Shown in pieces: positions 1 through 15,933 of a DNA stretch of 17,063 nt. How positions within the stretch are numbered: position 1 is the first letter of the stretch; each line of letters begins with the position of its first letter. Origin of the DNA: Tubiluchus corallicola (lineage: Eukaryota > Animalia > Priapulida); the NCBI GenBank assembly GCA_030141605.1, contig JAQGDQ010002041.1, positions 1 through 17,063 on the forward strand. Direction: 5' to 3'. The notes under the pieces were generated by a model, which saw nothing but the letters and a program-made list of their open reading frames with translations, was not told the DNA's origin and did no database searches. Position numbers and translations under genes: made by a program.

Positions 1-120
1 GAAGATATTCCGTTGGATGCTGGTGCACCCGGTGGCATGATTCGATATCGCCGAACATTGACACTTAGTTTTTTCTACAAATTTTATCTGATGGTGCTTC
101 GTCAACTTAGTGAATTGTGT
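1..120 (+). CDS. XDH: Xanthine dehydrogenase/oxidase, exon 1 in window (5'-truncated; C-terminal FAD domain)
   Basis: Frame 1 reads [40 protein letters not shown], matching the animal XDH motif [22 protein letters not shown]; donor GTGAGT at 121, phase 0. Confidence 0.93.
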
Positions 121-280
121 GTGAGTACCGACTGAAGCTTGTAGTGTTACAGACAAACTAAGACTTTGACATAATTAATTAATTAAGTAACTAATTAAAG
201 CTCGAGTTGCTCAACTCTTTCGGGACTGTAAATGTTTGCTGCATTTTGCACGGGTTCATGAAAAACTGCTGTCACTAAGT

Positions 281-993
281 AGCGATTACATTATATTTGA
301 TAATTTTTATAGGTTTCTACTCCTCACACAATGGATTTTCATGCTGAATTATATATGAAATGCATTTGCTTACCTTAGGCAAATTAAAAATCAATTTTTG
401 ATGAAAAAATTTAAAAACTTTCAGTAACTGCTGTATTTGCACTGTAACAATGTTCAGTATCTCTTGTAATCGGCTAATGTAGAAAATTTCAACTATCCAG
501 ACACAACACTCTGATAAACTTTGACCTCAAGTCTACTCTATGTTTAAGGGAAAATTCCTGTTAAAAGACGAAATGGCGTTAATTTGTCCTTGCCAGATCG
601 TTTGTTTTTCCTGGAACTCTGCACAGTTCCCTTGGGCTGTAGCAATAAATTAGTGTGTTCGATCACGCAAGTGTACACCAGACTCAGTTACTCAATAGGC
701 TAAATTGGAGTTGCTGACAAGGGCGTGTTTTTCTTAAATTTATCCAATTAAATCACTTATAAATGTTTAAACAGAGTATGATTGGATAGCCGATGTTCCC
801 CTGAATTTAACAGTACCCAATTTGTAATCATTTAGTTGTGTCTGTACTCATACACTAGCAGAAAAGTCAGAGGTCTTATAAGACTTATTTTGAATTGTGC
901 GGTCCTGAAGGAGTTGAAAAGATTTGTACCTGTATAGTAATGACAGGTGTGATTTCCTCGTATTCAACTTTCACCAGTTTGGCTGGTGGGTAA
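281..993 (-). repeat. Interspersed repeat family A, inverted copy carrying an XDH exon-5 3' fragment (930-983)
   Basis: The reverse complement aligns along most of its length with 12090-13018, and its right end aligns with 9054-9500 (reads [18 protein letters not shown]|gtac). Confidence 0.88.
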
Positions 994-1029
994 TGTACAT
1001 TAAATAGATTTACCAATAAACAATACATA

Positions 1030-1580
1030 TAAATTACATGTGCATCAAATCAGCTCATGCATACAGAAAAAGCAATCATAATTCTCCTAACATAAGAATC
1101 TATCTTATGGTCGGCCACTAGAATTAGTTACGAAAAAAATTACAATATATACAGATACAATATTACAATATAACAAATATAAATACGGGTGGGAAGTAAT
1201 AAAAATTTATTATACTAGAGGGGAAGTTTTGAAAATGAAAAACAACAAATCATGATTGAGTGATCAGTTATATGTTTCAAGTAAGTTTCATTTATAATTT
1301 TTTTTAAATATGGACAGCGAGTTGGCATTTTTAATAGCTGGAGCAATTGAATTCCATATGTAAGGGCCATTGTATTTAATAGAAAATTTTCTAACATTTG
1401 TGTTGCACTGTATGTAGTGATAGTGCAGCCTATAACGTGTACCGTAATTATGATCTCAGCATTCAAACAAAAATAATCAGTAAATAAGGGAGGCAATAAT
1501 TTATGAAAATTTGTACATAAAACAAACAAACTATAATAAACTAATATTTTAATAGAAAATGGATAAAGTGTGTAGCTATT
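1030..1580 (-). mobile_element. Decayed 3' end of a CR1/L2-group LINE ORF2
   Basis: With two frameshifts the - strand reads CFMYKF/HKLLPPLFTDYFCLNAE/HNYGTR..CNTNVRKFSIKYNGPYIWNSIAPAIKNANSLSIFKK, the typical HxYxTR...GxxxWNxL...FKK C-terminus of CR1/L2 elements. Boundaries approximate. Confidence 0.75.
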
Positions 1581-1688
1581 TTCTCTAACAAAAATGGTAC
1601 AGTGACATTTCTTGATTGTTTATATAACAAAAATTGTTTGTCTGTAAGGTAGGCTTAATTTCACATACATTAAATATTTTACATTTAG

Positions 1689-1781
1689 CCTGGTCTGTGT
1701 AAATCAGTGGTTCCTGGCACATACCGGAGTGCGACAGATCAATTCCACAAAGAGCATTTTCAAAGTACGCAATTATATGAG
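1689..1781 (+). CDS. XDH: XDH exon 2 in window (linker region)
   Basis: Acceptor ttttacatttAG, reads PGLCKSVVPGTYRSATDQFHKEHFQSTQLYE (resembles XDH ..TYTSAT..F.K....QLFQE), donor GTATGT at 1782; 93 nt, phase 0/0. Confidence 0.8.
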
Positions 1782-2430
1782 GTATGTAAATTCATGTCAC
1801 CACTACTAATAAGCACTGCTTGTGCTACTGTTGTGTTTTGTTTCTCTCGGAAGGCTCGTAGAGAAAACCAGAAAACACTTCTTCAAATTAAACTAGTTTA
1901 TTATACGAGAATTCTACAACACAAAAGTATGAAAGAATGCGAAATGTTTACAGTAAACGTGAAAATCTGGAAAACGTTTAAGTGTATCTGAAAATGCAAG
2001 TATACAAGAGAATTTGTAAGTGGCATCCGTGTGAATCTGCGTGCGTCTGTCTCAGCGGCCTGCTTCGCCTTACATAGGATGCCCGAGAAGCTTCCAGAAG
2101 TTATGTTCCAGAACATTCTACACGGTAAGACAATCATTTCAACGGAACATTCTACAATGTTCTATTTAATTCTAATAGATGCCAGCGATATCCACAACAG
2201 TTACCTTCTTATAAAAAAATTTATAGCATAATGTAATTGTGTTGCTTGAATAGTTTAATCTGAAAACAAATCAGATAATTTTATATAATTTGCTCAGTTT
2301 CATGGAGATATTTAAACCAAATTGTTCTAATTAACTTTTAACAAGTTTTTACGTAAATTACAAAATCTAATCTCTAGTCTAATTAATCTAACATCTTTAA
2401 TAAACAAAGGTTCAAAATTTAAGAAACTGG

Positions 2431-2690
2431 ATACTTGCAAACCAAAACCGTCCACAAGTTGACATAGTTAAAACTACTTGATGATATTTCAAAGTAGAAT
2501 GCTTCAAAAATTTAGTCAAACTTCAATTTTGTTTTTTTATAAAAAATAAATAAATTGGATTTTTATATTCTAACATCAAATTTTCAAGAAAATGTTCAAG
2601 AAAGACTAAAAATCTGATTTTATCACCCCGTACCCAGTTTTCTGGCTAGAAACTAGGACTGCAATTGTAAAAAACTTGTATTTTCAAACT
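2431..2690 (+). repeat. Interspersed repeat family B, copy 1
   Basis: Reverse-complement match to 8593-8882 (e.g. aaactaggactgcaattgt vs acaattgcagtcctagttt; cttgcaaaccaaa vs tttggtttgcaag). Confidence 0.8.
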
Positions 2691-3200
2691 CCGACAATAG
2701 CTCAAGGAAGCTGCCATTTTGATTCTGATTTTTTCTGTTGCCAAGCCCAGATGTTCATCAGCAAGAGCCATCTACTGGATTTAAGCATAATTCAAATACG
2801 TTCCGTGCAATGTCCATAGCAACCAATAGTTGTACGGTTGCTAAGTGTTTTGTAGAACTGCTACAAAAAACAATGACTGACTTTAACAGTGATTTTGTCA
2901 AGGTTGTTTTTCAGTGTGCAGCCTGCACCTCAACTTCAACGTGGATTATCTTAGCTTAGAAATAACATAGAGTGATGAGCTTGGTATCAAAATGATCTTC
3001 ATAAAATGGAGATTCAGGATATATGAATAATTAGAACTTATGGATGATTTTGTTATGCAAGCTAACAGTTAATAAATCAACTTACATGGTAATCTTCTAT
3101 CAGTGTACATAATTATGAAATTATAATAAAAAATCAATGAGCGACTCTAATTAACCTGTAACTGCAGTGTATGTGACTACCTGTGTGATTTTCACTTACA

Positions 3201-3976
<776 letters not shown>

Positions 3977-4347
3977 AATCTCCAGTAGTTATAATATAAC
4001 TTTTGAGACAAATAGCTCTTCGACTGTAATTGCGACAAATTGCACATACAATAGATTGTCATCAACACCCGTGTGACTCCACTGGCAAGTTTTCTCACTA
4101 TAATATGTAATCCAGCATCCTTGTTAGGCATGTTCCAATTAGCATGGTGATTAAATTTCAATCACGGTAAGCTTACAGGTAAGAAATTTGGTCACATGAC
4201 CAGTTCTAAAGGAAACCAATTGATAACAGAAAAGAGGGGGACCAATACAAGCTTATTTATTTGATATTTATTTATTTATTTATTTTAGCCATAACAAATT
4301 AACATAATAACAAAAAAAAGATACAAAGCAATATGTTGCCCAAGGAG

Positions 4348-4682
4348 CAGGGCCTATTTCAGCCAAAGCGAGGCCTGGGGAAGTGGGGCGTGTGAGGCCC
4401 CTTGGGGGGTGGGGGTGGGGGGCACCACCATGGTTGAAGCCTAGGAAATTTTTGAACTACTAGAACGCCGGAGAATCATTCTCGAAGAGGAAATATGGAG
4501 TTGTTAAACGAAAGAACAATTGAAAGAAAAACTGCTTTATTCTCAAGAGAATAGAGAGAGAGAGGGGGAGAGAGGAGGCAGTATGTTCGCATAAAGCAAA
4601 AAAAGTTACCTTGGCGCGAGGCCCCCCTGGAGGTTGAGGCCCCGGGGAGTATCCCCACTTCCCCCCTCTGAAATAGGCCCTG
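4348..4682. mobile_element. hAT-type MITE (non-autonomous DNA transposon), 335 bp
   Basis: Perfect 15-bp TIRs CAGGGCCTATTTCAG (4348-4362) / CTGAAATAGGCCCTG (4668-4682); exact 8-bp TSD CCAAGGAG at 4340-4347 and 4683-4690; subterminal inverted GGGGAAGTGGGG/CCCCACTTCCCC; GC-rich relative to the flanks. Confidence 0.93.
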
Positions 4683-5875
4683 CCAAGGAGACCAGTGCAG
4701 GCCACCCAAAGTAAAGTGACCCAAATGGTTCTTAAATCAGCACACTGCTTGTTAAATGGTTTGTTATCAGTACCATTTACTTTAAGCATCTTTTTATTGT
4801 TCAGTCTATAAATAGTTGAAATAATGATTGAAATGGATACAAAACACCAGTTTAACGTGTTGACCAAAAGTTTCTTTATTCTGAAATACAATTATTAACA
4901 TTTAGTTTAATTTGCATTGAGTAGAAGAAAATTAGTTGTATGATTAAATGTATTGCTATAACCAAGCACTGATATAAAAATTATGTATATTATATTGAAA
5001 TTAATTAACAATAACTTACGTTGTTAGAGCCTTTAACAGTTACAAAGACAGTAATGAGAACTCCAAGTAGCATTAAGAACAACAAAAATGTCACAACAAT
5101 AAATTCGTAAGTGTGAAAGTCATGTTTGAAGTTATAGATTATTCACTTTGTTATGATTGAGTTTAGGCACAGAAGTATGAACAAGAATAAAAAATCTGTA
5201 ATACATATTTGCACTGAACACAACAGAAAAGTGTTTATTAAAACTACAGAAACATGAGTAGCATGACTGCTGCACTGAACACTGAGAATGAGAGAGTGTC
5301 CTGCACTGCTGCACTGCACTGAGAGTGAGAGTGACTAGAAAGCAAAACCAGTCGGTATATATATAGGTATAGGTGACCTATGCAGACTTGTACAGGCTTC
5401 ACAACAACCATTATTTTAAAATAGGGAGAGATCCAGTGAATATGCATTCACTGGACCATACAATTATACTGGGGGTAAGTCAGCTGGTAGAATAACAGGA
5501 TTAGTTCATAGATGGCAGCACCTGATTAAAAATGTACAATGCCAACTTCCACAATAAGAAATTCACAGTCATAATGCTCATCACTGTCAGAAAAATAGAG
5601 CAATGGTGGAGAGAACCAAAAGACGGGTAAAACGTCATACAACTACTACAGCTATAGCTCACGAAAGACTAAAATGCTAATGTATAGAAGAATATTAGGT
5701 GCTTCAATTTTAAAAGAGTGACTACTGTAAAAAGCTAAATGCCTACTAAGTCAACAAACAGGTGGCAGCACCGTATGAGTAATTGAAAACTAAATTAAAA
5801 CCAGAAAGGGCCTATGCACCTACTACAATGATGATCAGTAAGCAAAGAGTTAATGTCTTTCATTATTTCTTACAG

Positions 5876-5993
5876 GTAGCTTCTGCGCGAAGCCATGCTA
5901 CAGGTGCTGTAGGTCGACCTTTAATTCATCAGTCGGGTTTAAAACAGGTGACAGGTGAAGCCAGATACACAGATGACATGCCGTATCTAGAAG
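5876..5993 (+). CDS. XDH: XDH exon 3 in window (start of Moco domain)
   Basis: Acceptor tttcttacAG; VASARSHATGAVGRPLIHQSGLKQVTGEARYTDDMPYLE-G (VGRP..H....QxTGEAxYxDD motif); donor GT at 5994; phase 0/1. Confidence 0.93.
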
Positions 5994-7003
5994 GTAGTTT
6001 TATTTACTAATTTAATTTGTAAAGAGAATTTTAAACTGAATACATTTAAATATCGCTTAGTCATTCGTAAAATGTATTTTTTATGAGTTTTTTTTTGTTT
6101 ATTGGTACAGCTACAAATGGCGTAGCTTCAAGTAAAGTGACTGTCATTTTTTTTAAATGAAACGGTGGCTTGTGGCACCAGGGTGGCAAAAAATTCCTGG
6201 TGCCCCACCCTTTTAATGTTTTTATCATTTGTTTCGTGGGTGAAGCCACAAATTCTGCACGTCTTCTGCATCCCTGAGCCCAACTTTCATTTTTCAACAT
6301 GATGGGATAAAGATCGAATTTTTTCTAAGAATCACCCGGAGTTTGATTTGTGGTACTGCAGCGGAGTAACTCTCTTCTATGCATTAGTTGCTCATAACAC
6401 GACAGTCATTAAACATTCAGCTCCAGCATTAAAACATGCAAAGATTATGAAAGATACAGAACACTACAGGTTTTCATAATAATACAATCAGCATTTAGAG
6501 AAACGTCAATGTTTCTGTCAAAATTATCAATCTGCTAAGCCACACTACACCCACACACGCTGTTAAGTAACAACTTTGGCCTTTTTTCTAGGCTGTATGT
6601 AGTAACTAAGTCAGCTATGTTGATCTCTGACTAGGCAAGTTTGTTGTAGTTTGAAAAATTTTGTTAATTGTTTTGTTAATGTCGGGTGAGTAATTACTAA
6701 TTAATAGTCATTAAAACTCTAGGAGAATTTTGCATCCTCTCATTCTTGCATCTGAGGTCGACTCCTCCCTTCCCCTTTGTTGTGCCTCTATTTTTCATCT
6801 TTGAATTAGTTTTGATCAATCTCTGATTAATGAATTAGTCTTGTGACTAACGACTAATCTGACTAAATAAATAACTTATTCATACTTATAATACAATTTA
6901 GTGGTTCCATGTCTCATGCAGTTGCAATATATGGCCTCCAATCAATTATAATGCTATTTTAATATACCTCTATGGAAATTAAACATACACTGTGGTCGTT
7001 TCT

Positions 7004-7368
7004 TCTCCTCTTTTCCTTCTTCCTTCCCTAATCTTACTATTTTTTCCATTCCATCATGTCTGCTAACCCTAACCATTCTTTCATTCACTCATCCTCCCCT
7101 CCCTTCCTTCTTCCTATCCCTAAACTTACTATTTTTTCCATTCCATCATGTCTACTAACCCTAACCATTCTTTCATTCACTCATCCTCCCCTCCCTTCCT
7201 TCTTCCTATCCCTAATCTTACTATTTTTTCCATTCCATCATGTCTACTAACCCTAACCATTCTTTCATTCACTCATCCTCCCCTCCCTTCCTTCTTCCTA
7301 TCCCTAATCTTACTATTTTTTTCCATTCCATCATGTCTACTAACCCTAACCATTCTTTCATTCACTCA
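7004..7368. repeat. Pyrimidine-rich minisatellite, about 4 x 92 bp
   Basis: Unit ...ccctaatcttactattttttccattccatcatgtctactaaccctaaccattctttcattcactca recurs at a period of about 92 nt. Confidence 0.95.
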
Positions 7369-7371
7369 TTT

Positions 7372-7549
7372 GTGCCACCTTAACAAGCCAAGCTTTCAAT
7401 GTGTCATACAGCAACTCTTTTATTTGGTTAATTTGACTTCATCAACGTTTTTTTACCTATACTGTTTCTTTTTGTTTCAATAATATTGCATCTTGATGCA
7501 TTGTATATGTATTGCTGGAGTGAAATAAATTGATTGATTGACTGATTGA
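7372..7549 (+). mobile_element. Probable L2/CR1-type retroposon 3' end
   Basis: T-rich UTR-like stretch ending in AATAAA (7524-7529) followed at once by a (TTGA)n tail, a pattern typical of L2-group 3' ends. Confidence 0.45.
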
Positions 7550-7672
7550 ACTACTAAATCAGCTACAGAAATCATCACCACTTGCTGTGTAGGAGAACTC
7601 TAACTGTGCTGCATTCTCAGTCATATATACCACATGATACAAGAATCTGCATGATGGTTTTGTTGATTACAG

Positions 7673-7851
7673 GTGAACTTTACCTGGGATTCGTACTCAG
7701 TAAGAAAGCTCACGCACTCATCAAATCAGTAGATCCGAGTGAAGCATTGAAATTACCTGGTGTTGTATCTTATGTGGACCATACCGATGTACCTGGGAGT
7801 AATCTTACTGGACCTATTGTACCTGATGAAGAAATTTTTGCTTCTCACAAG
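7673..7851 (+). CDS. XDH: XDH exon 4 in window
   Basis: Acceptor ttgattacAG; (G)ELYLGFVLSKKAHALIKSVDPSEALKLPGVVSYVDHTDVPGSNLTGPIVPDEEIFASHK; donor GTGAAT at 7852; phase 1/0 fits the neighbouring exons. Confidence 0.93.
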
Positions 7852-8170
7852 GTGAATTAACTTGCGATATTTGTCGTAGCGTTTTGTCACTAAACCTTTT
7901 CACAGTTTCGGTGATTCATGATGATCTTGAAAAGGTCAAAGGTTAAGTGTACCAGACAATGAATTTGTGTAAACTTGACGATGCCTCGCATAAATAGGTA
8001 AAGTCTAAGCAAAACAACTAAAGTTACTGAACTGATGCTGCAGGCGAGTTTGCTTTACCCATGTGTGATTTGTAGTTAAGACGCATTGCTGTTGCTACGC
8101 TTAACCTTCCACCTACAGCTCTAGCGCGTGCGCACAACGAAACCGTGAAAAGGCTCATGCACGCTCGGAC

Positions 8171-8253
8171 GCACACACACACACACACCCTCACACACAC
8201 ATGCACTCACGTCCACACTCACACACACATACACACTCACATGCACACACACA

Positions 8254-8292
<39 letters not shown>
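8171..8292. repeat. Imperfect (CA)n microsatellite
   Basis: Directly visible. Confidence 0.97.
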
Positions 8293-8296
<4 letters not shown>

Positions 8297-8592
8297 ATAT
8301 TTATGCAAACACACATTGACACATTATTTAGCATTATTTAGTACCTTATTATATGATTGTTAATACTGACAGACTTATTACTCCTGTGAGTATGATACTA
8401 TATACAAAACTATTAAGTGGTAAGTGATAAAATTACGTTTTTTATATCTATGCCATCTTATGGACGGTTTTCATTTTCAAGTACACATTTATAGCTTTAG
8501 CAGATTATTGCTCTATTGTGGTTGACTGGTCTGTTGTATGTTAATTTATGCATAATTAGGTTAATTTATGCATAATTACTTGTGCAGGTCAG

Positions 8593-8882
8593 TTTGGAAA
8601 TACAAGATTTTAACAATTGCAGTCCTAGTTTTTAGGCACAGAACTGGTTATGAGATTATAAAATTGAATTTTTAGTCTTTTCTGAACATTTTCTTGATGA
8701 TTTGATGCTAGAATATAAAAGTCCAGTCTATTTAGCGTTTGTAAAAAACAAAAAATTGACATTTGACCAATCATCTGGTCAGTATATTTAGCATTTGACC
8801 AATCATCTTTTTGATCATCCAACTTTGAACCATGGTAACGTAGTTTTAACTATGCCAACTTATGGCTTTGGTTTGCAAGCAT
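8593..8882 (-). repeat. Interspersed repeat family B, copy 2 (inverted relative to copy 1)
   Basis: Reverse complement aligns with 2431-2690. Confidence 0.8.
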
Positions 8883-8987
8883 GCGTAGAGTATTTCAAAA
8901 TCGTGTGCCAATTATTCTGATTATGATGTGTGTTAAATCAATAATCTATTTTGAAATTTTGACATTTTGAAATTTGAAATTGTGCAG

Positions 8988-9107
8988 GTGGTTTGTGTGG
9001 GTCAGATCATTGCTGGAATTGTAGCTGAGAATCAAGCAGTTGCTCAGAAAGCAGCTAAACTGGTGAAAGTTGAATACGAGGAACTCACACCTGTCGTTAC
9101 TATACAG
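8988..9107 (+). CDS. XDH: XDH exon 5 in window
   Basis: Acceptor ttgtgcAG; [40 protein letters not shown]; donor GTACTA at 9108; 120 nt, phase 0/0. Confidence 0.92.
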
Positions 9108-9611
9108 GTACTAATCTTTTCAACTCTTTCAGGACCGCATATTAGTTTCCTGTCACCCATCCATTTACAGACCTTTACTCACCAGCTAAACTGGTGAAAG
9201 TTGAATACGAGGCATTCACACCTGTCATTACTATACAGGTACTAATCTTTTCAACTCCTTCAGGAACGCACCATTCAAAATAAATCTTATAAGACCTTTG
9301 ACTTTTTTATATTAGTTTCCTGTCACCCATCCATTTACAGACCTTTACTCACCAGCCAAACTGGTGAAAGTTGAATACGAGGAACTCACACCCGTCATTA
9401 CTATACAGGTACTAATATTTTCAATTCCTTCGGGACCGCACCATTCATAAGAAATCTTATAAGACCTATGACTTTTCTGCTACTGTATGAGCACAGACAT
9501 AACTAAATTATATTAGTTTCCTGTCACCCATCCATTTACAGACCTTTACCCACCAGCCAAACTGGTGAAAGTCGAATACGAGGAACTTCAACCAGTCATA
9601 ACCATTGAGGT
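9054..9611 (+). repeat. Tandem array of the XDH exon-5 3' end + donor + family A fragment (4 copies of the exon end)
   Basis: 54-nt exon-end copies at 9054-9107, 9185-9238, 9355-9408 and 9556-9609, each followed by GT; periods 131, 170 and 201 nt. Confidence 0.93.
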
Positions 9612-10505
9612 GTGTGAGTTGTAGGTAAATAAAATAAACATTCGTAACTTCGTTTTAGTATTAAAAGTGTTAAAAGATGGCGCCATGGTTCTTCATATAC
9701 TACCCCGTTTTCAGGTCCGTTGAAAAGTATACATTTTAATGTGATTAATACTGCAAAAGTGTTTCTGATAATTAAATAATAAATTAAAATCTTAATTAAC
9801 GGCAGGCAAGCCCAACTATTGATAACATCACAAACTAACATAATTTCCAACAGCAAAAATATTCCATGACCGTATTGCACGTGTGTAAGAAAGCAAAAAT
9901 TCAAGTAGAGTGCTTCTGTAAGATAATCAGTGTGTTATACTAAAACTAGGCAAGTTTTAAGATAAAAACTGAAATTTCAAATTTACCACTGTGCTTACGC
10001 ATGAGCTGTCGAACATATGGAATACATCACAAACGAACACCGTTATGCTGAGAGGTACAGTACCTTTTTTTGAGGAACCTTTTCCAAATTGCAGGCATTA
10101 GTGTCCGTGTAAGTAGCAAATGGTGAAATACGTGTAAAAGCGAAGAACTAGTGGCGTGAACGTTGAACGTGAAACTGTGTTCATGTGGTAATAATTCTTT
10201 CACGTAAGTCATTTTTGAAAAAAATGTATGTTTCCTTTCAATATTGTATAGAATAGCTTGATTTGACCTGTAGTTTAAAATTGGGTCCAGTTTTGCTTTA
10301 ATATTTGCATTAATGACAAATACTGCATCTTTTTACTTCGTTGGCGCCATCTATTAACAGAAAAAAGGTACAAATAATAGACCAATTTCGACAATTTGCC
10401 GTTTTTCATCAATGCTAAGCAATTACAGGCCTGGAGATTGACAAATAAATTACTTACTTACTGACTTACTAACTTACTAGTTTTACACTTCATCGTATTT
10501 TCCAG

Positions 10506-10727
10506 GATGCAATTCGTGAGAAGTCTTTCTTCAATTTCCCGCGGAGTCTTCGCAAGGGAGACGTGAACGTCGGATTTGAAGCGTCTGATTTCATCACAGA
10601 GGGAGAATTCCACATGGGAGGTCAGGAACATTTCTACCTGGAAACTCAAGCTTGTATTTGCATTCCTAAAGGGGAAGACGGGGAGATGGAGATCATTTCC
10701 TCTTCTCAGACACCAACCAAAGCTCAG
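10506..10727 (+). CDS. XDH: XDH exon 6 in window
   Basis: Acceptor tattttccAG; DAIREKSFFNFPRSLRKGDVNVGFEASDFITEGEFHMGGQEHFYLETQACICIPKGEDGEMEIISSSQTPTKAQ with the hallmark GGQEHFYLET and the conserved Mo-site Gln; donor GT at 10728; 222 nt. Confidence 0.95.
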
Positions 10728-10833
10728 GTTCACATTCGTGTTTTCTATTTCTGAATGATATTTACTGTAAATGTCTTTGTGTGTCAGTAATCTAGTAAGA
10801 TAAGCTTTTAACTAACAAAATTTTCATTTTCCT

Positions 10834-10837
10834 TATT

Positions 10838-10869
<32 letters not shown>

Positions 10870-10929
10870 GGTGATGGTGGTGGTGGTGGTGGTGGTGCTG
10901 GTGCTGGTGGTGGTGGTGTTGGTTGTTGG

Positions 10930-11014
<85 letters not shown>

Positions 11015-11110
11015 CATAATCATTACTATTACTATCACTATCACTATTACTATTATACTTTTACTATTACTATTACTATTACTGTTATTATTATTATTAG
11101 TAGTATTATC
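10834..11110. repeat. Compound microsatellite (TTG)n/(TGG)n/(TTA/TAC)n
   Basis: Directly visible. Confidence 0.97.
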
Positions 11111-11998
11111 ATTATAGTTATTTATTTTATTGACATTTAAAAATGATACAGCACACAACAGGGTTAGTAAACAACAAGTATATATACGCAAAGATAAGAG
11201 TTAAGCATATTATAAAATAATTATTTTCTTACAAGATCATAAATTGATTTCTTGACAGTACTTTTTACATTGTAATTAAAGTACAAAGAACAACCATATT
11301 TTAATCGCAAGTTAAATTTGCTACCATTGATAATAGTATCAGACTCGAATATTGAATTTTTCTTGAAAAGTCAAAGCACAAGAAAACCCTCCGCTTACAT
11401 AAAGCTTAGAAAATTCATCTTCAAATCTTATACCACTTAAGCAAATTTAATAAGTGGTAAATTTTGCAAATGCACGCCATTTTGTAAATTTCAACTCCCG
11501 CGATGACGATTTTAATGGTTGCTTGTTTGAAACAAGTTTTGAAAACATTGCATATATGAAGTTTGAAAAAATAATCAGAGCTTTCATGGCGCGCATGTTG
11601 CTAACTAAGTAAAATTTTAAATTACTGGAAGGGGAAGCCAGCGACATTTTGTCAATTGACACGAACATTTTAAATTATTATTTCTAGTTACAGCTACTGG
11701 CGTATTACTACGGAAAGGGTACTTATAAAGCAGGTTTCAGAAAAATTGCCTTAAAAATTATCACTTTACAGCAATCTGTTTGTATATTGTACTCTACTGA
11801 AGGGATTTTTAGTTTGTTTCATTTTAAACGACCCTCCATAAATTATTGTGTAATTTGACAAACACAATTCCGCAGTAATACATCAGTAGCTTGACGCTTT
11901 CATTTTGTCTGTACTTAAATTTTTTTTCAAACCATATCCAGCTGATTTTGTGACGTGCTTATTTGTGAAACAGAGTGAATATAATCATGTTTTTCCAG

Positions 11999-12062
11999 TT
12001 ATTGGCAACAAAGGCCCTTGGAATTCCAGCTAACAGGATTGTGTCAAAAGTTAAGCGAATGG
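11999..12062 (+). CDS. XDH: XDH exon 7 in window
   Basis: Acceptor tttttccAG; LLATKALGIPANRIVSKVKRM-G, the segment that directly precedes the GGGFGGKE motif; donor GTAGGT at 12063, phase 0/1. Next exon not found in the window. Confidence 0.9.
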
Positions 12063-12089: not shown

Positions 12090-13018
12090 TACTAGTTTTT
12101 TAACTTCTACAGGACCGCACTGTTCACAATAGGTCTTATAAGACCTATGACTTTTTTGCTACTGTATTAGTACAGACACAACTAAATGATTACAAATTAG
12201 GCACTGTTAAATTCAGGGGAACATCGGCTATGCAATCATGCTGTTTGTTTAAACATTTATAAGTGATTTAATTAAATAAAATTTAGAAAAGTGCACCATT
12301 TTCAAGCACTCCAACTTAGGCTATTGAGTAGATTAGTCTGGTTTACACTTGCGTGATTGTACACAGTATTTTATTGATCCCTTGCTTTCTACATCTCAAG
12401 ACAACCATGACTTTTATGCTACTGTATGAGCACAGACATAACTAAACGATTACAAATTAGGAACTATTCTATTCACGAGAATCTCAGCTATCCAGTCATG
12501 GTATTTGTTTAAACATCTGTCAGTGATTTAATTGGATAAATTTAAGAAAAACACGCCCTTATCAGCAACTCCAATTGAGCTTATTGAGTAGCTGAGTCTG
12601 GTGTACACTTGCATGATCCTACACAATATTTTATTGATCACCCACTTGCTACAGCCCAAGAGAATTGTGCAGGGTTCCAGGAAAAACAAACAATCTGGCA
12701 AGGACAAGTTAAGGCCGTTTTCGTCTTTTAACAAGAATTTTCCCTTAAATATCGAGTAGACTTGAGGTCAAAGTGTATCAGAGTGTTTTGTCTGGATAGT
12801 TGAATTTTTCTGCATTAGCTGATTTCACACAAGTGATACTGTACATTGTTATAGTGCAAATACTGCAGTTACTGAAAGCTTTTTTTTAATTTATTCAACA
12901 AAAATCAATTTTTAATTTGTCTAAGGTAAGTAAATGGATTTCATATATAATTCAGCATGAAAATCCATTGTGTGAGGAGTAGAAACCTACAAAAATTATC
13001 CAATATAACATAATCGCT
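12090..13018 (+). repeat. Interspersed repeat family A, forward copy with an internal ~230-bp tandem duplication
   Basis: Inverted match to ~281-927; ~12147-12379 is repeated at ~12407-12639 (atgactttt..gctactgta...ttttattgatc). Lacks the exon fragment. Confidence 0.88.
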
Positions 13019-13224
13019 GAAAATTAATAAAAGCACCTGCAGCGCACTTCAGTAACCAGGCAAAAGTACAAATAACTGTATCTTGTGAATATAATTAAGA
13101 ATATTTTTTTGGTTAATCAGTAGTGCACTGGGAAAATGCATCAATGACGTTTTACCGATTGGCGTGAACTTTTAAATTTACTAAATTTACTCTTTTCTAC
13201 TTACATAAGTCTTTCAAGCGTCTG

Positions 13225-13406
13225 CTGTACAGAGTTACAGGAAAAACCAACCGATCAGTCAAGGATAAACTAAGGTCGTCTCAAATTCCAACAGGAATTT
13301 CTGCTTAAAAATAGAATATACTTGAGGCCAAAGTATATCAGAGTGTTATGCCCGGACAGTTGAAATTTTCTGCATAAGCCGATTTCGTACAAGTGATACT
13401 GTACAC
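13225..13406 (+). repeat. Family A, more diverged partial copy
   Basis: Aligns with ~12665-12846 (caggaaaaac..., cttgagg.caaagt.tatcagagtgtt, caagtgatactgtaca). Confidence 0.8.
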
Positions 13407-13632
13407 TGAGTTCCCAAGTACAAATATTTGCTTAGAATTCGTGTAATACTTATTAAAGCATTGGATTTCTGATGACTAGATTTAACCAAATGAATAATGC
13501 ATTTCTAAGATGCACTTTGCTGTTTCTTATCACTTTCTTCTATCCAATCCCAAACCTTTCTTAAATACAAATCAACACTCCGAATTTCCGCCTCCTCCAA
13601 TATTCCTTCCCCCTGATTTGCTGCATGTGTTT

Positions 13633-15933
13633 TTAGCATAGCGCGGTACTTTTCACTAGACGAAAATCTGGTTCCATTAGACCTTTTTTTGATGGTATGG
13701 CATCAATATCTAATTTGTTGGCTATAGCACGTGCTGCGTCTTCTGCCAATGTTAACAATGGAATGCCACTCATTTCTTTATGTTTTAGATCTTCTAAGAT
13801 ATTGACATCATTTAGCAGTGGGTGAAACATTGTGCCTTCTCGGCAACAGTCCCCAATGTACTGGAATATAGAGACAGCTCGAGCTTTCAAGTTTTCTGTG
13901 CCCCAGTCATCTTTAGTGGTCACTACTTCATGCAAGAAGGCCACTTTTAACATGTAAGAGTCAATGACCTTATCTGGTTGATACTTTATTGCTCTGTATA
14001 ATTCTGGCAAGTTAGCATCTAAACTGACCAAACTGGTGTGGTATGCTGAAGCATCAGGATTGGGATATAAATGTATTTCTTTGTTGCAAGAATACAGGAC
14101 AGGCTTTACTAGCACCTTTATGAGGATCAACACCATCTTACGGCTGTTGTCTAAGTTCTTTATAAATTCACATTCAGCAACAGCAAATGTGGGTTCAATT
14201 TTTGTTTTTGATTCGTCTGGTTTGAGCACATAGTGATAACTGTTGACAAACTTTGGCCATTTATCATTGGCATTCTTTGGTACTCCCTCTTCTTCAGCAC
14301 ATGGTGTCACATCTACAGAGACTTGTGCTATTTTTTTGTTTGGCAACAGAACACATAATTTCAAACATGTACAGACTTTATTCCATTCCACTACATGTGG
14401 AAAGCTGTTTGGCACAATTTTTTCTTTAAATTTCTCTTCTTGCAAAGCTGTTGCCACGGCTCTGCACAGGGATTGGGAAAACATCTCCTTTAATTTTCGT
14501 AAATCTGCTGTGAAATCTCCGTGCAGCTTTTCATACTGTACCACAACAAAAAAGTCTAATTCATCTGGCTGGCCAATTTTTACTCCACAAGCCGAACTGC
14601 CGACCAGTATGGGCACAAATCTTATGCGATGATTTTCGTAAACAATTCTGCTAACAGCACCTAACAATTCCTCTATATTGGTTCTAATATCGTCGAATTC
14701 TTTTACATTTGAAATTGTTCCTAATCCAGGCTTAGAAACCAAGTCCTTTAGAGGCAATCCACAAATGTTTTTTGACACTGTTTCATCATCCCCTGTGACA
14801 GAAAGTTCTGAAGACACTTCTTGCCACATTTGAAAGTACCGATAAGAAAGAAAAAGTCCTGCAATTTGTTTGTAATTTCTGTTCAGTGCCTTTTCGTAAG
14901 CTCGTTGGATGCAAATATCATAAACCGTTTCATGAAGGATATTTAACATTTCAGTCTGAACTCCTATATCAATGAGGTATTTAACAACGTCTACACTTTG
15001 AGCTGACAAGTGAGCATTTAGACAAGCCAGATGAATTAGACTTCCTGTATTGTAAAGTTTATTTACTATCTGCCTTACTATTTCGCCTGAATGCCTCTCT
15101 AGCATATTTTCATATATTAATTTAACAACATCCAGTCTACCTTCCATACATGCTATGGTGAGTGGGGTCAAATCATCATTATTTTCTGCCAGAATGTCAC
15201 AGCCCGCAAAAATCAGAACTGCTGCACAATGAACATGTCCTTGCAATGCTGCCATATGCAGAGCGGTATAACCTGCTGTGTCTAGGTAGAAGACATTTGC
15301 ACCTTTGAGAAGCAGCAAAACAAGGGTTCCAAAGTGCCCTTGAAATGCTGCAGCATGGAGGGGCGGAGCACCATCAACTGAAATGTAAGGATGTTCATCA
15401 ATTTTGGCGCCATATTTAATTAACAGCTTCACTACTTCAGTGTGGCCTTCCGATGATGCATACTGTATAGGTCGTATTTTATACTTTTCTGAGAAGCCAT
15501 CAACTTCTGCTCCATGAACCAACAGCATTTCACAAATTTCTGTATGTCCTTCTGAAGCTGCTAATATTAAAGGCGAGTGTCCATTCCTTCTAGAAAGACA
15601 GTTTACGTCAGCACCCCGTTCAATGAGTTGCTGTGCAAGAAGAGTATGTCCCAAATAACATGCAACTTCAAGGGGGGTTACTTCTGCATAACCTAGACTT
15701 GAAAGTTTTATAGTGAATCGTGATAGACTTTCCATTTCTGCTCCTCTGTTGAGAAGTTCATGAACAAGCTCAGGCACGTTAAACTGCGTTGCAGAATGTA
15801 GCAGGTCGTTGAGCAACTCTGTTCCATCTTCATCAAATATAAGAACAAATTGGTAATTAACTAGTAACGCCTCGAGTAAAAATTTTTGTTCAGCGTCTAA
15901 CACACTGTCAATAAGTACCTTGATTCTTTCCAT
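13633..15933 (-). CDS. Ankyrin-repeat + Mab-21/cGAS-like nucleotidyltransferase (cGLR) fusion protein, 766 aa, single coding exon
   Basis: Uninterrupted ORF with an in-frame TGA five codons upstream of the ATG. aa ~37-345 hold about 8 ankyrin repeats (TPLEVACYLGH, SPLILAASEGH, PLHAAAFQGH, TALHMAALQGH, TPLTIACMEG). aa ~410-745 hold ILVGSS..GVKIGQPDELDF (G445 S446 E458 D460), VSVDVTP (D541), TFAVAECEFI..RKMVLILIK, DSYMLKVAFLH, DW...L and HPLLNDVNIL, collinear with cGAS/Mab-21 motifs. Confidence 0.92.
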   Translation of the reverse strand: MERIKVLIDSVLDAEQKFLLEALLVNYQFVLIFDEDGTELLNDLLHSATQFNVPELVHELLNRGAEMESLSRFTIKLSSLGYAEVTPLEVACYLGHTLLAQQLIERGADVNCLSRRNGHSPLILAASEGHTEICEMLLVHGAEVDGFSEKYKIRPIQYASSEGHTEVVKLLIKYGAKIDEHPYISVDGAPPLHAAAFQGHFGTLVLLLLKGANVFYLDTAGYTALHMAALQGHVHCAAVLIFAGCDILAENNDDLTPLTIACMEGRLDVVKLIYENMLERHSGEIVRQIVNKLYNTGSLIHLACLNAHLSAQSVDVVKYLIDIGVQTEMLNILHETVYDICIQRAYEKALNRNYKQIAGLFLSYRYFQMWQEVSSELSVTGDDETVSKNICGLPLKDLVSKPGLGTISNVKEFDDIRTNIEELLGAVSRIVYENHRIRFVPILVGSSACGVKIGQPDELDFFVVVQYEKLHGDFTADLRKLKEMFSQSLCRAVATALQEEKFKEKIVPNSFPHVVEWNKVCTCLKLCVLLPNKKIAQVSVDVTPCAEEEGVPKNANDKWPKFVNSYHYVLKPDESKTKIEPTFAVAECEFIKNLDNSRKMVLILIKVLVKPVLYSCNKEIHLYPNPDASAYHTSLVSLDANLPELYRAIKYQPDKVIDSYMLKVAFLHEVVTTKDDWGTENLKARAVSIFQYIGDCCREGTMFHPLLNDVNILEDLKHKEMSGIPLLTLAEDAARAIANKLDIDAIPSKKGLMEPDFRLVKSTALC

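What the first reader, a model, noticed from the sequence alone, without database searches (positions are those of the whole stretch)
13633..15933. Ankyrin-repeat-fused cGAS-like receptor with an intact active site
Seen: about 8 ANK repeats joined to a full Mab-21 domain that retains GS (445-446), E458/D460, D541, the helix Lys (K606) and the SYxxK motif. Established: cGAS/cGLR enzymes use these residues to make cyclic dinucleotides for STING, and the well-characterised animal members sense nucleic acids. Invertebrate cGLRs with accessory repeat domains have been noted in family surveys, but I know of no defined ligand for ANK fusions. Inference: the ANK array may be a protein-sensing or autoinhibitory module, giving a protein-triggered nucleotide second-messenger immune pathway. 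This is the best candidate for an undescribed system in the window.
Basis: partly seen in the sequence, partly recalled or inferred. Interest (0 to 1): 0.85.

Follow-up and report, generated by a model that had tools for sequence, protein, structure and literature searches.

The report
Ankyrin-headed cGAS-like receptor, tail-clipped copy
This invertebrate gene joins an ankyrin-repeat array to a cGAS-type enzyme domain that keeps all its catalytic residues, a layout already catalogued in corals and a priapulid worm; the family likely makes a nucleotide immune alarm when the variable ankyrin surface binds a trigger, and this copy has lost its usual tail to a frameshift.

Summary
Observation confirmed. 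The 766-aa single-exon ORF has 8-9 ankyrin repeats and a cGAS-fold domain (best match Cv-cGLR1, Z 23.3). G445/S446, E458, D460, D541, K606 and SYxxK are as stated and invariant in 11 of 11 aligned family members. The layout is not new. Li et al. 2023 describe ANK-cGLRs, and their Table S1 holds two Priapulus caudatus members of this same subfamily (WNKVC signature); I found none in their activity screen. (1) An 8-nt surplus at 13652-13662 shifts the frame after the cGAS fold and drops a ~48-aa tail that 11 of 14 relatives carry. (2) The gene lies antisense, 1.6 kb after exon 7 of an in-phase xanthine dehydrogenase gene, likely inside its intron. (3) Public contigs point to several paralogues at 86-97% identity. 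(4) The catalytic domain is not basic (pI 6.4), and the ankyrin binding face varies more than the rest. Most likely the family is a set of ankyrin-gated cyclic-dinucleotide synthases with a non-nucleic-acid trigger; ligand, product and expression are untested. The scan had not reported this protein on other DNA. New member of a known kind.

The parts
13633..15933 (-). Single-exon ANK-cGLR reading frame, 766 aa
   Evidence: start aligns with the start of closest relative P0002
14833..15825 (-). Ankyrin array, residues 37-367: six canonical repeats plus degenerate and capping ones; capping helices 337-368 are the best-conserved part (66% to P0002)
13678..14751 (-). cGAS/Mab-21-fold catalytic domain, residues 395-752
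14554..14601 (-). G445-S446 loop and catalytic E458/D460
   Evidence: 11 of 11 invariant
14371..14385 (-). WNKVC subfamily signature, residues 517-521
   Evidence: 11 of 11; in Li Table S1 found only in two Priapulus entries
14311..14313 (-). Third catalytic carboxylate D541
13945..14118 (-). K606 and D658-S659-Y660-x-x-K663 of the helical lobe
   Evidence: 12 of 12
13652..13662 (-). Frameshift: 11 nt lie between F757 and the conserved KY, where P0002, P0003 and P0014 have one residue (8-nt surplus); nine unrelated residues and a stop follow
13505..13654 (-). Out-of-frame remnant of the family's C-terminal Trp-helix tail, 49 open codons and a stop
1..120 (+). Xanthine dehydrogenase exon (cut by the window start), host gene, XDH residues about 492-528
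1689..1781 (+). Likely XDH exon (AG/GT, open, in phase; no database match sought for it alone)
5876..5993 (+). Likely XDH exon (AG/GT, open, in phase; no Pfam hit)
7673..7851 (+). XDH exon (PF01315)
8988..9107 (+). XDH exon (PF01315)
10506..10727 (+). XDH exon (PF02738; XDH residues 701-773)
11999..12062 (+). Last XDH exon in the window (to residue about 795 of 1332); the cGLR lies 1.57 kb after its donor site

Best explanation
This is an intronless, tail-truncated copy of an ankyrin-fused cGAS-like receptor, and its family likely makes a cyclic dinucleotide alarm when the variable ankyrin surface binds a non-nucleic-acid, probably protein, trigger. Shown: the ANK array, the cGAS fold with all catalytic residues, ANK fusion in every full-length relative found, a non-basic catalytic domain, higher variability on the ANK binding face, and the frameshift after the fold. 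Inferred: (1) several paralogues with different ANK faces would recognise different ligands; (2) binding would be passed through the conserved capping helices (337-368) to switch on the enzyme; (3) the product would be a cyclic dinucleotide of unknown bases read by STING-domain proteins; (4) this copy reached the XDH intron by a recent duplication and may be active without its tail or may be decaying. The class assignment is about 0.97 sure; the stated confidence is for the ANK-gated mechanism.
For: Fold and active site. ANK fusion in 10 of 10 full-length hits of a filter-free search of 1.84 billion representatives (13 hits, 3 fragments), plus P0015. The N-terminal part varies from 172 to 581 aa while the junction is kept. 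Catalytic-domain pI is 6.4, and 9 of 11 family members are below 8.5; Li et al. report pI >8.5 for DNA/RNA-sensing cGLRs (section 6). No Zn-thumb-type insertion before K606 in 11 of 11. Identity to P0002: binding-face positions 6 of 35, convex surface 16 of 36 (p 0.02), framework 60 of 97. Among 16 ORF variants displayed from public contigs, 12 of 13 in the ANK half change the residue against 1 of 3 in the catalytic half, and 6 of 9 variable repeat codons are face positions (p 0.001). Paralogue signal: contig pieces 86% and 92% identical to the ORF at single-copy-like depth, against 95-98% on an XDH exon stretch; summed depth is about 12x (X1) and 3x (X4) that exon. Priapulus has at least five members and 5 STING genes.
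Against: No ligand, product or transcript was observed. Face positions are the most variable in any ankyrin protein, so drift gives part of this pattern; the excess of residue-changing variants is not significant (Fisher p 0.07; p 0.13 against a neutral 75%) and rests on 16 rows that the tool chose from 634. Two of 11 relatives do have basic catalytic domains (pI 8.6). This copy has a frameshift, and the segment after D460 is about 20 residues shorter than in Priapulus XP_014668761. Summed contig depth is not a copy number (tool caveat). Many enzymes in the Li screen were inactive for unknown reasons, so an intact motif does not guarantee activity.
Confidence: 0.45

Rival explanations
1. This particular copy is a dead or dying duplicate in a birth-and-death gene family. 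It landed in an XDH intron, took a frameshift and does nothing; the function lies in its paralogues. This can hold together with the best explanation for the family.
For: 8-nt surplus removes a tail present in 11 of 14 relatives; shortened segment after D460; antisense position among high-copy repeats; at several displayed sites nearly all laid contigs differ from the window copy.
Against: 757 codons are open with every invariant residue kept; the cGAS fold is complete before the shift; the closest relative P0002 and P0012 also lack the Trp tail; the displaced tail is itself still open for 49 codons, so the shift is recent.
Confidence: 0.3
2. The enzyme is switched on by nucleic acid like most characterised cGLRs, and the ANK array only localises, scaffolds or holds it off (autoinhibition released by ligand or by cleavage).
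For: 9 of 15 characterised active cGLRs respond to dsDNA or dsRNA (Li section 6); closest structures are nucleic-acid sensors; the ANK capping helices are well conserved (66%) and the full-length model has pTM 0.75, which fits a fixed ANK-enzyme geometry.
Against: Catalytic pI 6.4 and full-length pI 5.5; ANK groove poorly conserved; repeat number varies about threefold, unlike a fixed self-binding lid.
Confidence: 0.2
3. The ANK array picks a protein substrate and the nucleotidyltransferase modifies it (protein NMPylation) or makes a linear product, so there is no diffusible second messenger.
For: Ankyrin arrays often serve as substrate receptors (ASB, FEM1 structures among the hits); the same fold is used by non-cyclase NTases; the position matching the cGAS guanine-reading Arg (recalled) is not conserved in this family.
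Against: Sequence and structure rank cGAS/cGLRs first, above MiD49, MAB21L1, OAS and polymerases; the helical-lobe K606 and SYxxK cage residues are invariant; Priapulus keeps 5 STING genes, and both cGLRs that Li counted there belong to this subfamily.
Confidence: 0.1
4. The gene is a bacterial or viral passenger (endosymbiont or giant-virus ankyrin effector) or a contaminant, as its lack of introns might suggest.
For: Intronless and ankyrin-rich.
Against: It sits in animal DNA beside a spliced XDH gene and repeats; all named relatives are animal; atlas look-alikes are 100% eukaryotic; other cGLR loci fetched are also long uninterrupted frames (12 of 12, 466-907 codons); GC3 0.32 is close to the XDH exons' 0.36.
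Confidence: 0.02

Closest known systems
Priapulus caudatus ANK-cGLRs XP_014668761.1 and XP_014666123.1 (Li et al. 2023, PMC9980059, Table S1), plus LOC106811728, LOC106804703 and LOC106815824
   Same: N-terminal ANK array, WNKVC signature, all catalytic residues, about 29-30% identity over the catalytic domain
   Different: The window protein groups with unnamed P0002 (56%, 100/100), outside the clade that holds the four Priapulus proteins in the tree; it lacks the Trp tail through a frameshift and has a shorter segment after D460. No activity is reported for any of them in what I read.
ANK-cGLRs of cnidarians (Stylophora pistillata, Li Fig. 4C legend; Actinia and Acropora entries in Table S1)
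   Same: ANK-then-cGLR layout; ligand undefined
   Different: No WNKVC signature in the searchable Table S1 text outside Priapulus, so a different subfamily; whether the fusions share one origin was not tested
Cv-cGLR1 (PDB 8gjw), Sp-cGLR1 (8gjy), Tc-cGLR (7lt2), cGAS
   Same: Caged NTase fold, Z 20-23, GS loop, three carboxylates, SYxxK
   Different: These are stand-alone, basic, nucleic-acid-activated enzymes; this one is ANK-fused, non-basic, 15-18% identical, with no Zn-thumb insertion
Acidic cGLRs with unknown ligand (Pd-cGLR, Sp-cGLR2; Li sections 6 and 10 passages)
   Same: Low pI and a proposed non-nucleic-acid trigger
   Different: Their ligand is thought to bind the enzyme's own back face; here a separate, variable repeat array is the candidate sensor

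Membership tests
cGLR (Li et al. 2023 criteria) | Active-site motif h[QT]GS-X8-20-[DE]h[DE]h-X50-90-h[DE]h | tested here: met
   L-V-G445-S446, 11 residues, E458-L-D460-F, 78 residues, V-D541-V (criteria). One deviation: V instead of Q/T before GS, also present in XP_014668761, which Li accepted.
cGLR (Li et al. 2023 criteria) | [quoted passage not shown] | tested here: met
   Family profile matches both lobes of cGAS and Sp-cGLR1; Mab-21_C above cut-off. PF03281 is not hit by this protein alone but is above cut-off in 3 of 13 relatives.
cGLR (Li et al. 2023 criteria) | Predicted structure homologous to cGLR/CD-NTase | tested here: met
   pTM 0.83 model; Foldseek top hit 8gjw E 5e-11; VIA Z 23.3, rmsd 3.1, 293 aligned
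cGLR (functional) | Ligand-dependent synthesis of a cyclic dinucleotide | not testable with these tools
   Needs purified protein
cGLR (functional) | STING receptor in the same organism | not testable with these tools
   No genome held. Unreviewed scan notes report STING-domain genes in this genome; not checked by me.
Nucleic-acid-sensing cGLRs | Basic catalytic domain, pI > 8.5 | tested here: not met
   pI 6.4 for residues 395-750; threshold from Li section 6. Surface charge of the groove itself could not be mapped.
Vertebrate cGAS | Zn-thumb His/Cys insertion before the helix Lys (feature recalled; seen in the cGAS sequences printed) | tested here: not met
   No insertion between E587 and K606 in 11 of 11
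Priapulus-type ANK-cGLR subfamily | N-terminal ANK array and WNKVC signature | tested here: met
Priapulus-type ANK-cGLR subfamily | C-terminal Trp-helix tail (11 of 14 relatives) | tested here: not met
   Encoded but out of frame; also absent in P0002 and P0012
MAB21L1/2 developmental proteins | Closest similarity to MAB21L1 | tested here: not met
   Last of 42 profile hits, E 3e-6 against 5e-16; Z 18.1 against 23.3; Priapulus has a separate mab-21-like 2 gene

The most novel reading that the evidence does not exclude
The family is a fast-evolving receptor repertoire, NLR-like in logic: paralogues with different ankyrin faces each detect a pathogen protein and fire a shared cGAS-type enzyme, whose cyclic dinucleotide directly switches on caspase-STING and RNase-STING fusion effectors in the same animal. 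That would be a protein-triggered, CBASS-like defence circuit in a metazoan.
Probability: 0.15. Interest if true: 0.88.

Novelty: new member of a known kind. Interest (0 to 1): 0.38.

Why it matters
Whether any animal cGAS-like receptor senses something other than nucleic acid is an open question that Li et al. state themselves. This subfamily gives a sharper test than the stand-alone acidic enzymes, because the candidate sensor is a separate domain that can be deleted or swapped, and natural paralogues differ on its binding face. The specific copy in this window is a poor reagent by itself because of its clipped tail; tail-bearing paralogues or the Priapulus proteins should be run beside it.

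Tried and rejected
Whole-genome paralogue and STING search: no genome is held. Expression: no RNA holder listed, and the one guessed-RNA run had no depth on the ORF; neither is evidence. ANK domain against catalytic domain as two chains: no answer, score 0.00, alignments not used by the tool; no evidence either way. Stand-alone forms of the catalytic domain: none at 204-707 aa, but that search also missed P0006, which is in its own query, so it is weak. Viral contigs (35 pattern matches, 0 confirmed) and prokaryote genomes (25 matches, 0 confirmed): no relative, but the scans are pattern-limited. Metagenome scan: 12 of 178 matches were generic cGLRs without WNKVC, one of them ANK-fused by its motifs. 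Spine-helix charge is 0 to -5 in 11 of 11, but by my hand count the same stretch of human cGAS is also near neutral, so I did not use it. Tail profile built from distant relatives only: weak (4.3 bits; 17 of 995 scored shuffles reached it); with P0003 and P0014 included 16.2 bits, 0 of 995. The 8-nt surplus is not among the 12 of 41 indel rows displayed, so I cannot say whether it is private, shared or an assembly error. One contig of depth 4.7 stops aligning exactly at 13662; too shallow to count. Transposon carriage: no terminal inverted repeats flanking the ORF and no transposase hit among 70 short frames scanned; not supported, not excluded, since the window ends 1.1 kb upstream of the start. 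No Rfam match. The sigma-70 scan is irrelevant to a eukaryote. PMC10327000 does not mention ankyrin.

Full report
Observation. The window holds one long non-repetitive reading frame, 13633-15933 on the minus strand, 766 aa. Pfam finds ankyrin repeats and the Mab-21 helical lobe above its cut-off, but not the Mab-21 NTase model, and a single-sequence PDB search reached only E 0.47. The NTase assignment therefore needed relatives.

Relatives. A filter-free search of 1.84 billion representatives with residues 371-766 returned 13 proteins. Ten are full length and all ten carry N-terminal ankyrin repeats; three are C-terminal fragments. A profile search of longer proteins added one more, P0015. The five that carry a name are all Priapulus caudatus; the rest have no name. 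G445, S446, K452, E458, D460, WNKVC (517-521), D541, K571, K606, D658-S659-Y660, K663, H668 and H704 are invariant in all aligned members. The family profile hits cGAS (5e-16) and Sp-cGLR1 (6.5e-16) in both lobes, with MAB21L1 last of 42 hits. The catalytic-domain model (pLDDT 81, pTM 0.83) matches Cv-cGLR1 first by Foldseek and by VIA-align (Z 23.3, rmsd 3.1, 293 residues). The full-length model (pLDDT 83, pTM 0.75) shows 8-9 ankyrin helix pairs. In a tree of 11 catalytic domains the window protein pairs with unnamed P0002 (56%) and lies outside the clade holding the four Priapulus rows; P0015 and the fragments were left out. I did not determine the organism beyond 'animal with spliced genes'.

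What is already known. Li et al. 2023 (PMC9980059) say that some cGLRs carry ankyrin or TPR modules and show ANK fusions in Stylophora. I read passages, sections 5-7, part 1 of 8 of Table S3, and ran word searches of the supplementary tables. XP_014668761 (my P0007) and XP_014666123 (same locus and sequence start as my P0015) are in Table S1 and are the two cGLRs counted for Priapulus, beside 5 STING genes. WNKVC occurs only in those two rows. The screened set, Table S3, has no Priapulus entry and none of five common ankyrin words or WNKVC; cells are cut at about 400 characters, so C-terminal repeats or trimmed cores of ANK fusions could be missed. Seven literature searches (open-licence library only; listings seen, plus passages of PMC10327000) showed no paper on the ligand or product of an ANK-cGLR. 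The scan's own index has no look-alike of this protein.

The frameshift. After the GLMEPDF motif the ORF adds nine residues and stops. Another frame, 13511-13654, matches the C-terminus of P0014 at 48% over 44 residues (E 1e-13) and weakly that of P0003. P0002, P0003 and P0014 have one residue between that F and a following KY; the window has 11 nt there, an 8-nt surplus. A terminal helix with a Trp is present in 11 of 14 relatives, unclear in P0004 and absent in P0002 and P0012. A tail profile scores the displaced frame at 16.2 bits with 0 of 995 shuffles reaching it, but only 4.3 bits (17 of 995) when the two close fragments are left out. The cGAS fold ends near residue 752, so the shift spares it. 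The copy is thus catalytically complete on paper but not full length.

Setting. Seven plus-strand exons with AG/GT ends, no stops and consistent phases encode xanthine dehydrogenase residues of about 492-795 of 1332; five of them have database support. No later XDH exon was found in the window. The cGLR lies antisense 1.57 kb after the last donor, so it is nested in an intron if XDH is complete, which the window cannot show. High-copy repeats flank it.

Paralogues. Contigs of public DNA runs laid at 85% give ORF pieces 86% and 92% identical at depths of 211 and 161 in run X1, where a contig on the XDH exon has depth 247 and the exon-spanning pieces in three runs are 95-98% identical. Median summed depth over 12 ORF bins is about 12 times the exon mean in X1 and 3 times in X4. 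The tool warns that summed depth is no copy number, so I take this only as 'several paralogues'. Both ORF indels displayed are 3 nt (2 of the 12 rows shown of 41).

Clues to the trigger. The catalytic domain has pI 6.4 and the whole protein 5.5; nucleic-acid-sensing cGLRs have pI above 8.5. Nine of 11 family members are below that mark and two are at 8.6. There is no Zn-thumb insertion. The N-terminal region varies from 172 to 581 residues, while the capping helices next to the enzyme are the best-conserved segment against P0002 (66%). Using the DARPin convention for binding-face positions (recalled), identity to P0002 is 6 of 35 on the face, 16 of 36 on the convex surface (p 0.02) and 60 of 97 in the framework. 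Of 40 variant rows displayed (of 634), 16 lie in the ORF: 12 of 13 in the ANK half change the residue against 1 of 3 in the catalytic half (p 0.07; p 0.13 against neutrality), and 6 of 9 affected repeat codons are face positions (p 0.001). These numbers argue against a fixed partner for the groove, such as the protein's own enzyme domain, and fit variable ligands. They also fit simple lack of constraint, since these positions vary in all ankyrin proteins.

Mechanism. The most likely reading (0.45) is an ankyrin-gated cyclic-dinucleotide synthase family with a non-nucleic-acid trigger. Architecture, fold, motif conservation, charge and variability are shown; ligand binding, allosteric relay through the cap, product and STING read-out are inferred. 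Rivals: this copy is decaying (0.3, compatible with the family model); nucleic-acid activation with ANK as scaffold or lid (0.2); protein-modifying transferase (0.1); foreign gene (0.02). Unreviewed scan notes describe caspase-STING-STING and HEPN-STING-STING genes elsewhere in this genome. I did not check them; they only shape the most novel reading.

Verdict. Real and correctly identified, but a new member of a published architecture and of a subfamily already listed for Priapulus. Its value is as a handle on the open question of non-nucleic-acid cGLR ligands. Interest 0.38.

Noticed in passing
window 1-12062 (+): Seven in-phase exons of a xanthine dehydrogenase gene (residues about 492-795); the rest of the gene lies outside the window.
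   Followed up: yes
window 9052-9611 (+) and 898-1009 (-): The 3' end of the XDH exon 8988-9107 with its donor site is repeated four times in tandem at 131-201 nt spacing, and an inverted copy lies at 898-985, joined to a repeat also found at 12097-13018. Looks like a piece of exon carried along with a repeat; the extra donors could allow alternative exon ends.
   Followed up: no
window 281-920 versus 12097-13408: Large inverted copies (79-86%) of a high-copy repeat with internal 260-nt and 560-nt duplications; summed contig depth about 1e5 in run X1. Probably a non-autonomous transposon family.
   Followed up: partly
window 9690-10310: Very high-copy repeat (summed depth up to 2.9e6 in X1) inside an XDH intron, not detected by self-comparison of the window.
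   Followed up: no
window 7001-7369: Four 92-nt tandem copies, pyrimidine-rich, each with a short CTAACCCTAACC telomere-like word.
   Followed up: no
window 3200-3975 and 10830-11110: Long compound trinucleotide microsatellites (TAG/TGG/CAG; TTG/GTG) that produce spurious low-complexity ORFs.
   Followed up: no
L008 308-3013 (+): A second intronless 901-aa protein with ankyrin-type motifs ahead of a cGLR active-site motif, without WNKVC, on a metagenome contig: another ANK-cGLR subfamily (no Pfam scan run).
   Followed up: partly
P0007, P0008, P0010, P0011, P0015: Priapulus caudatus has at least five ANK-cGLRs of this subfamily, while Li et al. Table S5 counts two cGLRs for the species.
   Followed up: yes
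window 14488-14553 (-), residues 461-482: The segment after catalytic D460 is 22 residues to the conserved K482, against 29 in P0002 and 42 in XP_014668761 (read); low model confidence at 469-475.
   Followed up: partly
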